From Naegleria gruberi (taxonomy: Eukaryota): DNA of 64,000 bases. Location: assembly GCA_000004985.1 (NCBI GenBank), contig GG738853.1; one strand, 5' to 3'. Below are positions 5,690 through 14,195 of this stretch, piece after piece; positions within the stretch are counted from its first letter, which is position 1; each line of letters starts with the position of its first letter. Below the pieces are notes generated by a model, which was given only the letters and a program-made list of their open reading frames with translations, was not told the DNA's origin and searched no databases. The translations under genes were made by a program, and so were the position numbers.

Positions 5690-6060
5690 TTCAACTAAAA
5701 TTCCAGCTTTGGAATTGTACTTACCAACTTTATTTTCAAAAAGTATTTGTGTGTTATTTGAATTTTTGAGTTTTTTTATTGTAGGTGTATGTGTTGTGAT
5801 TATGTGTTATTCAATCTGTTTGCCTAATCATCTTCACATGTGGTGTGGTTGTGAGTTTTATTGTGGTGGAGTGTCAAAATTGGAATTTTGTGGAAGTGGT
5901 GAATTGGATGGGGTTGATGTTGTGGAAAGTGTGGTATTAGTGATGATGTTAATTGGTTGTTTGTGTTAACCAATTAAAAAGTGTTGAATTATTCAAAGTT
6001 AAAGTTGGTGTTGTTTTGTTGCATACCAGTAAACACGAATTGATTATTTTGTGTGGTTTG
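5690..6060. repeat. GT-skewed low-complexity tract (plus strand almost only G/T; CA-rich on minus) between convergent 3' ends
   Basis: Plus strand reads ttgtgtgttatttgaatttttgag...gtggtgtggttgtgag...tggaagtggtgaattggatggggttgatgttgtgg with very few C and irregular GG/GGGG runs. It lies between the HYDIN-like stop (5651) and the importin-alpha stop (5989) and overlaps that gene's last codons. Track ORFs 5673..5969 and 5953..6234 are compositional artefacts. Confidence 0.5.
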
Positions 6061-7545
6061 TGGTTCCTCATCATCATCATCAAGACCAAAGTATTCTTCT
6101 ACAATCTTGTATGCCTTCTTATAAATTTCTTCACTAGCGTGATCTGTCAAACTTTCAAGTTTATCAACACCTCCGGCTTCTTCAATAAAGTCTGTGTATG
6201 GATTGATACCATCAATATCATCAGCAATGCTTGAACCAGAAGCTAAAATATTTTCAATACCTTCCAAAGCAACGCCAACAACCTTGACATCCTTGACTGA
6301 GAGTAATTCGCAAAGTGGTTTAATACAACCTCTATCTACTAAATATCTTATTTGTTCATCTGAACCTCCTGATGTAGCGTTAGAAATAGCCCAAGCAGCT
6401 TCCTTCTTAACGTCAAAATCACCTGGTTGATCCAAGATTGCCACCAAAGGTGGAATAATATTAGCATCAATAATTGTTTGAATTTGATCCTTGTTTCCGG
6501 CAGTAATGTTAGAAATTGTCCAACAAGCTTCCTTCTTAATACTCTTCTTTTGATGTTGAAGAAGTTGACACAAAGATGGAAGAGCGCCACAATTCAAAAC
6601 GACTTGTGTTTGTTGATCATTACCAGTAACAATATTACCAATAGTTCTCAAGGCTGGTGTTTGAACGGATGGTTGTGGATGCATAAGTAATTCAACAAGT
6701 CTTCTAACAACATTTGAATCAATAACAGCTTGAATTCTATTGTTTGGACCGTCTGAGAGGTATGAAATTGCCCAACAAGCGTCAGTAAGAACTTCTTCGT
6801 CAGAGTTGTATAAGAGATGAGCCAAAGTTGGCAAGGCTGGAGCAACAAGATTAAAATCAGGGATTGGTTTACCTCTACAAAGGTTGGAAACAGTCCATGT
6901 AGCATTTCTGAGAATTGTAACTTTTGGTTGTTCAGAAATGATAGACAACAATGGAACCATAACTCCCATTTGTAAAATATAATCTCTACATTTAGCAGAA
7001 TCACCAGCAATATTACCCAAAGCCCAGATAGATTGTTCTCTAACATCATCATTTGGACATCCGAGAAGTTGAATAAAGATTGGAACAGCATTGCTTCTAA
7101 TGACTGTTTCAGTATGTTCGGAGGTACCTGAAGCAATGTTTGTGAGGGCCCAACAGGCTTCAAATTGGAGGGCAGCGTGGTCGACTCTTTGCAAAAATTC
7201 AACAAAGATTGGGACAACACCAGTAGAAATAACTTCATCGATAGGTGGACTCTTTTCCATGGACAAGAGTTTTCTGAATTGAACGGTAGCTTCTAATTGG
7301 AGTGTTGGATTACCAGACTTGACTTGTTCGAGAAGGAGTGGAAGTTGGTTAAGTTTTTCTTGGATGAGAGGATCGTGAATTGTTGCGCCTGTTGTGTTTT
7401 CCTTTCTTCTCTTTTGCAAGAGTTCATCTCTCATCTTCTTTCTGAGAGATGATTGTTTATCCATTCTCTTTATTTTACCATCTTCTGCGCTGAGTGTTGA
7501 CTTTAGGTTTTTTCTAGTTGGTGTCTTTTGATTGCTGGAGTACAT
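5989..7545 (-). CDS. importin subunit alpha (karyopherin alpha), paralog A, single exon, 518 aa
   Basis: Real ATG start (plus strand 'cat' at 7543-7545). The N-terminal IBB domain is basic (KRMDKQSSLRKKMRDELLQKRRKE) and is followed by ARM repeats (WALTNIASGTSEHTETVIRSNAVPIFIQLL ... WAISNATSGG). The acidic C-terminal tail is typical of importin-alpha. Confidence 0.85.
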   Translation of the reverse strand: MYSSNQKTPTRKNLKSTLSAEDGKIKRMDKQSSLRKKMRDELLQKRRKENTTGATIHDPLIQEKLNQLPLLLEQVKSGNPTLQLEATVQFRKLLSMEKSPPIDEVISTGVVPIFVEFLQRVDHAALQFEACWALTNIASGTSEHTETVIRSNAVPIFIQLLGCPNDDVREQSIWALGNIAGDSAKCRDYILQMGVMVPLLSIISEQPKVTILRNATWTVSNLCRGKPIPDFNLVAPALPTLAHLLYNSDEEVLTDACWAISYLSDGPNNRIQAVIDSNVVRRLVELLMHPQPSVQTPALRTIGNIVTGNDQQTQVVLNCGALPSLCQLLQHQKKSIKKEACWTISNITAGNKDQIQTIIDANIIPPLVAILDQPGDFDVKKEAAWAISNATSGGSDEQIRYLVDRGCIKPLCELLSVKDVKVVGVALEGIENILASGSSIADDIDGINPYTDFIEEAGGVDKLESLTDHASEEIYKKAYKIVEEYFGLDDDDEEPQTTQNNQFVFTGMQQNNTNFNFE

Positions 7546-7600
7546 TCTTATTTACACTTGTTGAGTTATTTTTTTTCTTCGTGGAAATTATTTTTGAACA

Positions 7601-12354: not shown

Positions 12355-12410
12355 GCCTTACATGGACAAAATTAAGTTTTTCTCCTTGTGAATTGTAAAT
12401 AAAACTAACT

Positions 12411-14195
12411 TTATTCTTCTTCAGCAGCAAAGAATTTTTCCAAAATGCCAACACAAGTTTCATAAATTTGGGTGTTTTGATGGTTTTGGAGATTTTCAAT
12501 TCTGTCAAGTCCTCCATATTCTTCAATAGCATTTGTAACAACGTCAAGAATATTTTGTCTTTCGGCTGAGTTCAATACAGCTTGAAGACCTTCCAAAGCA
12601 ACTTGGATAATCTTTTGGTCTCCAACTAAAAGACCATCACAAAATGGTCGAATCACTCCTTGATCAATAATATACTTAATTTGTTCATCTGTGCCCCCTT
12701 CACATGAATTGGCAAGTGCCCAATAGGCTTCTTTTGTTACATCAAACGATTCAGATCCAGAAACAAGAATTGAAATAATCTTTGGAATGATACCAGCATC
12801 GATAACCATTTGAATTTGATCTCTGGTACCTGCAGTAATGTTTGAAAGTGTCCACATTACTTCTTTTCTTATTGACTTCTTTGGGTGAGTGAGAAGGTTT
12901 GGTAAGTGATTAAGGAGACCACATCTCAAAACTGTTGATGTTTGGTAATCATCACCAGTGACTATATTACCAATTGCTCTTAATGCAGGACTAGAAAGTT
13001 ATTTGTTAATTGATATTTTCCATTGTGGATATAATACTTACGTTTGAATAGAAGAATTATGATGACTAAGTAACTCAATAAGTTTGTTTGTTGCTCCAAC
13101 TTCAATAATTGCTTGAATTCTGTCAGTAGGCCCATCAGATGCATATGAAATAGCCCAACAAGCATCAATCAAAACGTCATCATCTGAACTATGGAGGAGG
13201 TGAACAAGAACAGGAATAGCAGTTAAAACAATTTCCCAAGGTGGGGCTGGCTTTCCTCTGAATAAATTTGATAAGGTCCATGTGGCATCTCTCTTCACTC
13301 TGTCGCTTGTTTCTGATTGAATCATTTTTAAAACTTTTGGCATGGCTCCTTGGTTGAGAACTAAATCTCTCAAAGTGCATGAATCACCACTAATATTTCC
13401 CAAAGCCCAAACACTTTGTTGTCTCAAATCTTCACTTTCACTATCAAGGAGATTAATCATTCTAGGAATACAATCCAATTCGACTACATATCTGGTATGA
13501 TCTGCAGTACCTGAGGCAATATTTGTAATGGCCCAAGTTGCTTCAAATTGTAATTGATACAAGTTGGATACAGAAATTGATTTCTTGGTTGGATCGTGTG
13601 ACCAAACTTGTGGAGGAGGGGAGGAAGATCCAGAGTAATCCACATTAAAGTATTTGTGAACTTCATTCAAATCTAAATATTGTACAAAATATGGTACTGC
13701 TCCCGATAAAATAACTTCATCAATTGGAGGATTTCTTTCAATTGACAATAATCTTCTAAAACGTTGAGTGGTTTCAATAATAGCTGCAAAGTTATTCCAT
13801 TCCATATCTAAACTAGCAACAAGAATGGATAAATCACGAAGTTGACTAGAAATAGGTGGTCTCTTTCTTCTCTTGTCATATGATATTTTTGTAATCTTGT
13901 TCAAATTTTTAACAAAGTCACGAGATTTTTGCACTGCTGATTGAATTATATTTTCGGATTGTTGTTCAGATGATGATTCTTGAATAGATGGTAAAGGTTT
14001 TATGTTTGGTTCTATTCTTGGAGAGGAAGATCCCCAAACATCTCGTTTCTGTTCAGAGCAATAACTTTGTCTGACATTGGAAATTAATTTTTCTCTTTGT
14101 TGTACTTTGAGCATTCTTTGACGTAATAAAGTTGCTTGGATTTCATTCTTTCCAGATTTAGCATCCTGAATAACACTTGTTGGTGATTGGGACAT
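12411..14195 (-). CDS. importin subunit alpha, paralog B, two exons join(14195..13042,12991..12411), ~577 aa
   Basis: ATG at 14195. Exon 1 ends ...SSIQ + 'ac'. A 50-nt intron at 12992-13041 starts GTAAGTATTATATCC and ends TTTCTAG, and the track stop of ORF 13038..14195 is inside the GTAAGT. Exon 2 continues T-PALRAIGNIVTGDDYQTSTVLRCGLLNHL..., which parallels paralog A (PALRTIGNIVTGNDQQTQVVLNCGALPSL). Identity to paralog A is only ~45%, with a ~35-aa insertion. Confidence 0.8.

What the first reader, a model, noticed from the sequence alone, without database searches (positions are those of the whole stretch)
5989..14195. Two diverged importin-alpha paralogs 5 kb apart on the same strand, both with an E2F-type TTTGGCGC motif upstream
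Paralog A (518 aa, intronless) and paralog B (~577 aa, one 50-nt intron, ~35-aa ARM insertion) are only ~45% identical, so the duplication is old. Three unrelated genes lie between them. Both promoters contain the GC-rich 9-mer TTTGGCGC(G/C) (7601-7609; 14391-14399), which is otherwise almost absent from this AT-rich window. This suggests shared cell-cycle (E2F/DP-like) control of nuclear import capacity, with the B copy possibly specialised (for example for mitosis or flagellate differentiation).
Basis: seen in the sequence. Interest (0 to 1): 0.5.

Follow-up and report, generated by a model that had tools for sequence, protein, structure and literature searches.

The report
Importin-alpha genes with E2F-type promoter sites
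Two old importin-alpha gene copies in the amoeba Naegleria gruberi do sit 5 kb apart, but only the standard copy (and an unrelated gene between them) has an E2F-type promoter site that is kept across related species, so joint cell-cycle control of both copies is not supported.

Summary
The window is Naegleria gruberi DNA. The sequence observation holds. Paralog A is 5989-7545(-), 518 aa. Paralog B is 12411-14195(-), 577 aa, with a 51-nt intron. They are 46% identical. TTTGGCGC occurs only twice in 64 kb, once upstream of each gene. Both genes are already annotated as importin alpha in GenBank.

The E2F reading is partly supported.
- N. gruberi encodes E2F, DP, DEL and RB.
- The wider consensus TTTSSCGC occurs 5 times against 1.1 expected, always within 200 nt upstream of an ATG.
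- The core upstream of A is conserved in N. lovaniensis, a third Naegleria-like organism and Willaertia magna.
- The B site is at -196, in the opposite orientation, and absent from both B orthologue promoters tested.
- A and B are not neighbours in those genomes.

The strongest E2F-like element belongs to a gene between the paralogs, NAEGRDRAFT_64220. Its TTCCCGCC is invariant at -50 to -60 in four species. This lineage-restricted protein carries the motif TVPKPFNLS..KKR, matching the importin-alpha-binding segment of TPX2, plus a winged-helix domain.

B belongs to a conserved divergent clade with no recognisable IBB domain and an intact NLS groove.

Verdict: a probable E2F-type site at A, as in human KPNA2, of modest novelty.

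The parts
5989..7545 (-). Importin-alpha paralog A (NAEGRDRAFT_78705, XP_002680607), 518 aa. It is the canonical copy, with an IBB domain, ARM repeats and Arm_3.
7601..7609 (-). E2F-type site TTTGGCGCG, 57 nt upstream of the A ATG and in the same sense as the gene. The core TGGCG is invariant in four organisms.
7578..7588 (-). Second conserved promoter block ATTTCCACGAA, followed by an A-run. It starts 19-20 nt after the start of the GGCGC core in the three Naegleria-type sequences. Its function is unknown.
10569..11237 (-). Dual-specificity phosphatase gene. In N. gruberi it shares the divergent intergenic region that holds the tandem E2F-like sites.
11296..11304 (+). E2F-type site TTTCGCGCC, the distal site of a tandem pair. 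It is seen only in N. gruberi and a 98.8%-identical strain.
11311..11319 (+). E2F-type site TTTCCCGCC, 50 nt upstream of the NAEGRDRAFT_64220 ATG. TTCCCGCC is invariant at -50 to -60 in N. gruberi, N. lovaniensis, N. fowleri and Willaertia.
11368..12354 (+). NAEGRDRAFT_64220, 328 aa, from a family found only in Naegleria and Willaertia. It has a disordered N-terminus with invariant GIPFI..TVPKPFNLS..KKRD (like the TPX2 importin-alpha-binding segment) and a predicted winged-helix domain at about residues 121-240.
12411..12990 (-). Importin-alpha paralog B, exon 2 (includes the stop codon).
12991..13041 (-). Intron of paralog B, 51 nt, GTAAGT...TAG.
13042..14195 (-). Importin-alpha paralog B, exon 1 (XP_002680609; 577 aa in total). 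There is no Pfam IBB hit and a 33-aa insertion follows ARM1. All five W-x-x-x-N pairs of the NLS groove are kept.
14391..14399 (+). E2F-consensus word TTTGGCGCC, 196 nt upstream of the B ATG and in the opposite sense to the gene. It is not conserved in the B orthologue promoters, so its function is doubtful.
56113..56121 (-). Fifth TTTSSCGC match in the window (TTTCCCGCC). It lies 55 nt upstream of the ATG of the membrane-protein gene NAEGRDRAFT_64243 (54884-56059, minus strand).

Best explanation
The region holds the canonical importin-alpha gene of Naegleria gruberi (A) and a divergent paralog (B). B belongs to a clade found in Naegleria and Willaertia that has lost a recognisable IBB domain. 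The two genes have become neighbours only in N. gruberi.

The TTTGGCGCG element 57 nt upstream of A is one of a class of E2F-consensus (TTTSSCGC) promoter elements. In Naegleria and Willaertia these sit about 40-65 nt upstream of the ATG of a subset of genes. The most likely mechanism is that the E2F-DP heterodimer encoded by this genome binds the element, with RB restraining it. Its DNA-contact motif RRxYD is intact. Transcription of A would then be tied to proliferation, as E2F1/DP1 does for human KPNA2.

The same class of element is even better conserved at NAEGRDRAFT_64220, the gene between the paralogs.

The copy upstream of B is most likely a chance match or an element specific to N. gruberi. 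It is not evidence that the two paralogs are co-regulated.

Shown: the gene structures, the motif positions, the enrichment, the cross-species conservation and the presence of E2F/DP/RB.
Inferred: that E2F/DP binds these sites, and that expression follows the cell cycle.
For: - Identity of the genes.
- Window-wide enrichment: TTTSSCGC has 5 matches against 1.1 expected, and 0 of 100 shuffles reach 5. All five lie within 200 nt upstream of an ATG.
- Across 187 kb of Naegleria and Willaertia DNA, 8 of 12 strict sites lie within 200 nt upstream of an ATG, although that zone is only 8.6% of the sequence. Seven of those eight lie at 39-63 nt; the eighth is the B site at 200 nt.
- TTSSCGC ranks first of 884 comparable XXSSYYY patterns for promoter-proximal enrichment in the window (4 of 6 sites, p=1.4e-4).
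- A-orthologue promoters all carry the core: N. lovaniensis GGCGCCAA at -149, the L003/L004 organism ATTGGCGCG at -53, and Willaertia ATTGGCGCGC at -140 plus TTTGGCGGCAA at -81.
- The longest invariant run in the four-way alignment of A promoters is TGGCG.
- The rough chance of such hits in three further species is 2e-5. This estimate ignores shared ancestry.
- In the 64220 promoters, TTCCCGCC is the longest invariant run in four species.
- E2F, DP, DEL and RB are present in N. gruberi (PMC4862756 supplement). Pfam finds E2F_TDP and E2F_CC-MB in NgruE2F.
- Precedent: human KPNA2 is transcribed under Dp1/E2F1 control (PMC5041915, title and abstract).
Against: - No binding or expression data could be reached. 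The relevant RNA-seq supplement is not held.
- Genome-wide enrichment upstream of replication or mitosis genes could not be computed, because only about 187 kb of related DNA was available.
- That sample is biased, because several loci were fetched through genes already known to carry the motif.
- The three Naegleria promoters are related by descent, so part of the conservation is inherited similarity.
- No E2F-like word lies upstream of importin-alpha in Acrasis kona or in a metagenomic relative. The element is therefore not ancient at this gene.
- The other genes carrying the motif are not recognisable S-phase genes: a membrane protein, and a B9-C2 ciliary gene in other species.
Confidence: 0.55

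Rival explanations
1. One reading: both importin-alpha paralogs are co-regulated by E2F/DP through a shared TTTGGCGC element. This would link nuclear import capacity to the cell cycle, with B as a specialised copy.
For: - The exact 8-mer occurs only at these two promoters in 64 kb.
- E2F/DP are present in the genome.
- The B site is retained in a second N. gruberi-like strain. That strain is 98.8% identical, so this says little.
Against: - There is no GGCGC-containing word at all in 474 nt (N. lovaniensis) or 754 nt (Willaertia) upstream of the B orthologues.
- The B site is at -196 and inverted, whereas the conserved sites cluster at 39-63 nt.
- A and B lie on different contigs in both other genomes.
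Confidence: 0.2
2. The conserved GC-rich elements are real cis-elements, but a factor other than E2F/DP binds them. This could be a GC-box zinc-finger protein, or a core-promoter factor specific to this lineage that acts near the transcription start.
For: - Conservation and fixed position show function, not the identity of the binding factor.
- The genes carrying the element are not classical S-phase genes.
- Further conserved blocks flank the sites: ATTCCACGAA at A and ACGTTAAC at 64220. This suggests composite promoters.
Against: - The only feature shared by the A sites (TTGGCGCG/C) and the 64220 sites (TTCCCGCC) is the E2F consensus TTSSCGCS. An Sp1-type GGGCGG is not invariant.
- The E2F recognition helix of N. 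gruberi is near-identical to the Nematostella and rice E2F sequences in the same file.
Confidence: 0.2
3. All the matches are chance occurrences of a rare GC-rich word in AT-rich intergenic DNA, with no regulatory meaning.
For: - Only two exact copies exist, and 3 of 100 shuffles give 2 or more.
- The sample is small and biased by how loci were chosen.
Against: - Conservation at orthologous promoters in three further organisms, for two independent genes, with the motif core as the longest invariant block.
- Tight clustering of site positions.
- First rank among 884 comparable patterns.
Confidence: 0.1

Closest known systems
Human KPNA2 (importin alpha-1) as a Dp1/E2F1 target
   Same: An importin-alpha gene with an E2F-type element in its proximal promoter. 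This would tie the supply of the nuclear-import adaptor to proliferation (PMC5041915).
   Different: In Naegleria no binding or expression has been shown. The site is conserved only within Naegleria and Willaertia and is absent in Acrasis. It is therefore not demonstrably the same ancestral site.
Canonical E2F sites (TTTSSCGC) of animal and plant G1/S promoters
   Same: The consensus matches, and the variants include TTTGGCGCG, TTTCGCGCC and TTTCCCGCC. The sites are promoter-proximal. One N. gruberi promoter has a tandem pair. The genome encodes E2F, DP, DEL and RB.
   Different: The target set seen here is not the classical replication set: importin-alpha, a lineage-restricted winged-helix protein, a membrane protein and a B9-C2 gene. 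No recognisable replication gene lay in the DNA available.
Divergent importin-alpha paralogs of other eukaryotes (own knowledge, not tested here: for example tissue- or stage-specific KPNA paralogs of animals)
   Same: B is an old paralog that keeps the ARM solenoid, the Arm_3 repeat and all five W-x-x-x-N pairs of the NLS groove.
   Different: The B clade has no detectable IBB domain even at E<=10. It has about 60 extra residues in the N-terminal region and a 33-43-aa insertion in the ARM1-2 loop. In N. gruberi it also lacks the C-terminal tail.
TPX2 importin-alpha-binding segment (PDB 3KND chain B; human TPX2 in 6BJC)
   Same: NAEGRDRAFT_64220 has GRTVPKPFNLSSTKKRD. Xenopus TPX2 has GHTVPKPFNLSKGKRKHEE, in the fragment crystallised with importin-alpha. 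These TPX2 chains are the only PDB matches to the motif.
   Different: The match is a short motif only (E 0.05-0.28). There is no Pfam TPX2 hit. A profile search of 1.84 billion proteins finds no relatives beyond this family. The rest of the protein is a winged-helix domain, which TPX2 lacks.

Membership tests
Importin-alpha (karyopherin-alpha), paralog A | N-terminal IBB domain | tested here: met
   Pfam PF01749, E=3.7e-09, residues 14-87.
Importin-alpha (karyopherin-alpha), paralog A | ARM-repeat solenoid plus the atypical C-terminal Arm_3 repeat | tested here: met
   Arm E=4.7e-95 with 8 stretches; Arm_3 E=4.1e-21. It is 57-60% identical to plant and algal importin-alphas.
Importin-alpha (karyopherin-alpha), paralog B | N-terminal IBB domain | tested here: not met
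   No PF01749 hit at E<=0.01 on the full protein, nor at E<=10 on residues 1-160. The precomputed Pfam lists of both B orthologues also lack it. The alignment shows a degenerate remnant plus an insertion of about 60 aa, with KRRKR retained.
Importin-alpha (karyopherin-alpha), paralog B | ARM solenoid, Arm_3, and the W-x-x-x-N pairs of the major and minor NLS sites | tested here: met
   Arm E=2e-69 with 7 stretches; Arm_3 E=2.1e-18. The motifs WAITN, WALGN, WTLSN, WTLSN and WALAN are aligned with those of A.
E2F/DP target promoter | Match to the E2F consensus TTTSSCGC close to the gene start | tested here: met
   A: TTTGGCGCG at -57. 64220: TTTCCCGCC at -50 and TTTCGCGCC at -65. B: TTTGGCGCC at -196, inverted.
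E2F/DP target promoter | The organism encodes E2F and DP with an intact DNA-binding domain (and RB) | tested here: met
   NgruE2F, NgruDP, NgruDEL and NgruRB are in the PMC4862756 source data. NgruE2F hits E2F_TDP at 1.3e-28 and E2F_CC-MB at 7.8e-32, and carries RRIYD.
E2F/DP target promoter | The site is conserved at orthologous promoters | tested here: inconclusive
   Met for A in 4 organisms and for 64220 in 4 species. Not met for B in N. lovaniensis and Willaertia. Not met for importin-alpha in Acrasis or L013.
E2F/DP target promoter | E2F/DP occupies the site, and expression depends on the cell cycle | not testable with these tools
   No ChIP, DAP-seq or EMSA data exist. The supplement of the Kennard et al. 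mitotic-synchrony RNA-seq is not held.
TPX2 family (considered for NAEGRDRAFT_64220) | TPX2 or TPX2_importin Pfam domains, or profile-level homology | tested here: not met
   No Pfam hit at E<=10. The profile search returns only the family's own members. Only the 9-residue motif TVPKPFNLS matches TPX2.
Cdt1 (considered for NAEGRDRAFT_64220) | Cdt1 middle and C-terminal winged-helix domains | tested here: inconclusive

The most novel reading that the evidence does not exclude
The 7-kb segment is not two importins with unrelated genes between them, but a set of functionally linked genes under E2F-type control.

The canonical importin-alpha and NAEGRDRAFT_64220 are directly adjacent in Willaertia, about 4 kb apart in N. 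gruberi, and about 40 kb apart on one contig in N. lovaniensis. 64220 is a lineage-restricted protein with a TPX2-type importin-alpha-binding motif and a Cdt1-like winged-helix domain.

In this reading 64220 is a so far unrecognised importin-alpha-regulated cell-cycle factor of heteroloboseans. It could be a very divergent licensing factor or a spindle-assembly factor. The IBB-less paralog B would then be a dedicated partner or regulator.
Probability: 0.12. Interest if true: 0.6.

Novelty: new member of a known kind. Interest (0 to 1): 0.35.

Why it matters
Very little is known about cis-regulatory elements in Naegleria, and I found no paper describing E2F sites in its promoters. A conserved, position-fixed E2F-type element in a lineage far from animals and plants would be direct promoter-level evidence that the E2F-DP-RB circuit inferred for the last eukaryotic common ancestor is in use there. 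It would also give a practical way to find Naegleria cell-cycle genes. The importin-alpha link mirrors human KPNA2, so it is expected rather than surprising. The two paralogs themselves are already annotated.

Tried and rejected
- Fetching the N. gruberi locus with its official gene models failed, because the assembly is not in the contig index. I therefore annotated the window from ORFs and Pfam.
- Expression data: Fritz-Laylin & Cande 2010 and the Current Biology version of Kennard et al. are not held. The preprint is held but its supplements are not. Velle et al. 2022 does not mention importin or TPX2.
- The second N. gruberi-like strain contig, L007, is 98.8% identical, too close for footprinting.
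- Looking further out for conservation found no E2F-like word upstream of importin-alpha in Acrasis kona (L012) or the metagenomic contig L013.
- A CDE/CHR-type pairing at A (GGCGCG-TG-TTCAAA) was considered and rejected, because TTCAAA is not conserved in the other species.
- An Sp1-type GC box was rejected, because GGGCGG is not invariant.
- For 64220, Pfam at E<=10, full-length PDB sequence search and a profile search of 1.84 billion proteins found no family. The two weak extra hits are low-complexity or coiled-coil proteins.
- The afdb50 fold library was unavailable.
- I considered whether the E2F-like site at 56113-56121 is a relic of the ancestral 64220 promoter. No simple inversion explains its position and orientation, so I dropped the idea.
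Full report
**Source and genes.** ORF 5989-7545(-) is 100% identical to a Naegleria gruberi protein on a 695,587-bp contig. It is NAEGRDRAFT_78705 / XP_002680607. Pfam finds an IBB domain, eight ARM stretches and the atypical Arm_3 repeat, so this is a canonical importin-alpha. I call it paralog A.

Paralog B runs on the same strand. Exon 1 is 14195-13042, a 51-nt GTAAGT...TAG intron is 13041-12991, and exon 2 is 12990-12411. The spliced 577-aa product is identical to GenBank XP_002680609, 'importin alpha'. 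A and B are 46% identical, and B has a 33-residue insertion after ARM1. Both genes are therefore real and already annotated.

Five ORFs or gene models lie between them, not three:
- a 350-aa protein with no Pfam match
- a 247-aa protein with no Pfam match
- a 148-aa RimB/Zn_protease-like protein
- a dual-specificity phosphatase
- the 328-aa NAEGRDRAFT_64220

**Age and nature of the duplication.** B has orthologues in N. lovaniensis (61% identity) and Willaertia magna (56%). In a neighbour-joining tree the A clade joins both Acrasis importin-alphas with 98% bootstrap. B forms a separate, long-branched clade with 100% bootstrap. B is no closer to A (47%) than to plant or algal importin-alphas (45-47%). 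The duplication therefore predates the split between Naegleria and Willaertia.

The B clade has these features:
- No detectable IBB domain. The alignment shows a degenerate remnant, about 60 inserted residues and a retained KRRKR.
- A 33-43-aa insertion in the ARM1-2 loop in all three species.
- All five W-x-x-x-N pairs of the NLS-binding groove conserved.

B is thus probably still an NLS receptor, but its coupling to importin-beta is open to question.

The closeness of A and B is not conserved. In N. lovaniensis and Willaertia, A lies next to the genes TRM5/TYW2, B9-C2 and NDK, and B is on a different contig with different neighbours. Parts of the window are syntenic with the N. lovaniensis neighbourhoods of A (penicillin amidase, adaptin) and of the 64220 orthologue (membrane protein, FKBP-TPR, RCC1-like, NAA35). 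The local order has therefore been rearranged in N. gruberi.

**The motif in the window.** TTTGGCGC occurs exactly twice:
- At 7609-7601 on the minus strand (TTTGGCGCG), 57 nt upstream of the A ATG, in the same sense as the gene.
- At 14391-14399 on the plus strand (TTTGGCGCC), 196 nt upstream of the B ATG, in the opposite sense.

The expected count is 0.32, and 3 of 100 shuffles gave two or more.

Widening to the canonical E2F consensus TTTSSCGC gives 5 matches against 1.1 expected, and no shuffle out of 100 reaches 5. The three extra sites are:
- A tandem pair, TTTCGCGCC (11296-11304) and TTTCCCGCC (11311-11319). They lie 65 and 50 nt upstream of the NAEGRDRAFT_64220 ATG, in the divergent intergenic region shared with the phosphatase gene.
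- TTTCCCGCC at 56121-56113 (minus strand), 55 nt upstream of the ATG of the membrane-protein gene NAEGRDRAFT_64243.

All five sites are therefore close to a promoter. Among 884 patterns of the form XXSSYYY, TTSSCGC ranks first for enrichment within 120 nt upstream of an ATG (4 of 6 sites, p=1.4e-4). The motif was chosen from this window, so that p-value is optimistic.

**Cross-species test.** Upstream of the A orthologues the core is present every time:
- N. lovaniensis: GGCGCCAA at -149.
- An unnamed Naegleria-like organism from a metagenome and an SRA run (L003/L004): ATTGGCGCG at -53.
- Willaertia: ATTGGCGCGC at -140 and TTTGGCGGCAA at -81.

In the three Naegleria-type sequences a second block, ATT(T)CCACGAA plus an A-run, starts 19-20 nt after the start of the GGCGC core. 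In the four-way alignment the longest invariant run is TGGCG.

For NAEGRDRAFT_64220 the orthologues are in N. lovaniensis, N. fowleri and Willaertia. All of them carry TT(T)CCCGCC(C)AAA at -50 to -60, followed by ACGTTAAC. TTCCCGCC is the longest invariant run in that alignment. In Willaertia this gene lies immediately downstream of importin-alpha A.

I estimated the background rate of the relaxed motif in non-genic DNA, leaving out the promoters that had been chosen for study. With that rate, the rough chance of such hits in three further species is 2e-5 for A and 2e-7 for 64220. These figures ignore shared ancestry.

Pooling 187 kb of Naegleria and Willaertia DNA, 8 of 12 strict sites lie within 200 nt upstream of an ATG, a zone that makes up 8.6% of the sequence. 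Seven of those eight lie at 39-63 nt; the eighth is the B site at 200 nt. The pool is biased by how the loci were chosen.

The B orthologue promoters are different. The 474 nt (N. lovaniensis) and 754 nt (Willaertia) upstream contain no GGCGC-type word at all. The only other copy of the B site is in a 98.8%-identical strain, which tells us nothing. Further out, Acrasis kona and a metagenomic relative have no such word upstream of importin-alpha.

That condition is not met. The source data of Medina et al. 2016 (PMC4862756) contain NgruE2F, NgruDP, NgruDEL and NgruRB. NgruE2F matches Pfam E2F_TDP (1.3e-28) and E2F_CC-MB (7.8e-32). Its recognition segment [29 protein letters not shown] is nearly the same as in the animal and plant E2Fs listed in the same file.

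The only feature common to the A sites (TTGGCGCG/C) and the 64220 sites (TTCCCGCC) is the E2F consensus. An Sp1-type GGGCGG is not invariant, and a CHR-like TTCAAA next to the A site is not conserved. Human KPNA2 is reported to be transcribed under Dp1/E2F1 control (PMC5041915), so the proposed logic has a precedent.

Binding and cell-cycle expression remain inferences. Mitotic-synchrony and differentiation RNA-seq exist for N. gruberi (PMC10802493), but the data tables are not held.

**The gene between the paralogs.** NAEGRDRAFT_64220 belongs to a family found only in Naegleria and Willaertia. Its disordered N-terminus holds two invariant motifs: GIPFI..T.PKPFNLS..KKRD and GVPFIKKK..T...P.

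The first motif gives only two PDB matches, and both are TPX2:
- The Xenopus fragment crystallised with importin-alpha (3KND_B, GHTVPKPFNLSKGKRKHEE, E=0.05).
- Human TPX2 (6BJC).

The match is short and marginal, and there is no Pfam or profile support for TPX2 homology.

**Verdict.**
- A, and 64220, very probably carry a functional, conserved E2F-type promoter element.
- The element at B is not conserved and is placed unusually.
- The pairing of A and B is a rearrangement specific to N. gruberi.
- 'Shared control of the two paralogs' is therefore not supported.

This is a new instance of a known kind of regulation. Interest is modest. The open side question is what the 64220 protein and the IBB-less paralog B do.

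Noticed in passing
window 11368-12354 (+); orthologues at L009 10001-11080, L010 9225-10355 and L002 11868-12539: NAEGRDRAFT_64220 is a lineage-restricted protein. Its invariant N-terminal motif TVPKPFNLS..KKR matches only the importin-alpha-binding fragment of TPX2 in the PDB. Its predicted winged-helix domain gives Cdt1 as the best fold hits, below significance. In Willaertia the gene sits directly downstream of importin-alpha A.
   Followed up: partly
L001 7962-7969 and L002 8063-8073: An E2F-consensus word lies upstream of the B9-C2 (ciliary transition-zone type) gene in both N. lovaniensis and Willaertia. It is GCGCCAAA in N. lovaniensis and the near-palindromic TTTGGCGCCAA in Willaertia. 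This is a third promoter where the motif is conserved.
   Followed up: no
window 7578-7588 (-); L001 about 9871-9880; L003 about 303-312: A block ATT(T)CCACGAA followed by an A-run is conserved, starting 19-20 nt after the start of the GGCGC core in the three Naegleria-type importin-alpha A promoters. It could be a second factor site or the transcription start region.
   Followed up: no
window 11330-11335 (+) and the orthologous promoters in L009, L010 and L002: (A)CGTTAAC is conserved 10-20 nt downstream of the TTCCCGCC site in all four 64220 promoters. It contains an AACG core like that of Myb/MSA-type elements (own knowledge, not tested).
   Followed up: no
window 12411-14195 (-); L005 10001-12138; L006 10001-12133: The B clade of importin-alpha has no detectable IBB domain and has a variable 33-43-aa insertion in the ARM1-2 loop. 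It keeps the full set of NLS-groove residues. The N. gruberi copy also lacks the C-terminal tail seen in the N. lovaniensis copy.
   Followed up: partly
window 54884-64000 compared with L009 and L010: The membrane protein 64243, FKBP-TPR, an RCC1-like gene and NAA35 are the neighbours of the 64220 orthologue in N. lovaniensis and N. fowleri. In N. gruberi, 64220 has left that block and a cytochrome P450 gene (56428-57970) occupies the slot. The 64243 promoter in N. gruberi carries its own TTTCCCGCC.
   Followed up: partly
window 240-5651 (+): A large CFAP65/hydin-like flagellar protein with many ASH/Ig-like domains lies immediately downstream of importin-alpha A. The listed ORF starts at 240 and may be only part of the gene.
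   Followed up: no
window 10569-11237 (-): The dual-specificity phosphatase has a C-terminal tail (NVIKNALKKANGNFDMALDYLLN) that looks like a UBA-type helix motif. This is by eye only; Pfam reports only the phosphatase domain.
   Followed up: no
window 27860-27866: A relaxed E2F-like word (TTCCCGC on the minus strand) lies about 120 nt upstream of the NOB1 (PIN_6 plus Zn-ribbon) ribosome-biogenesis gene at 26293-27741 (-).
   Followed up: no
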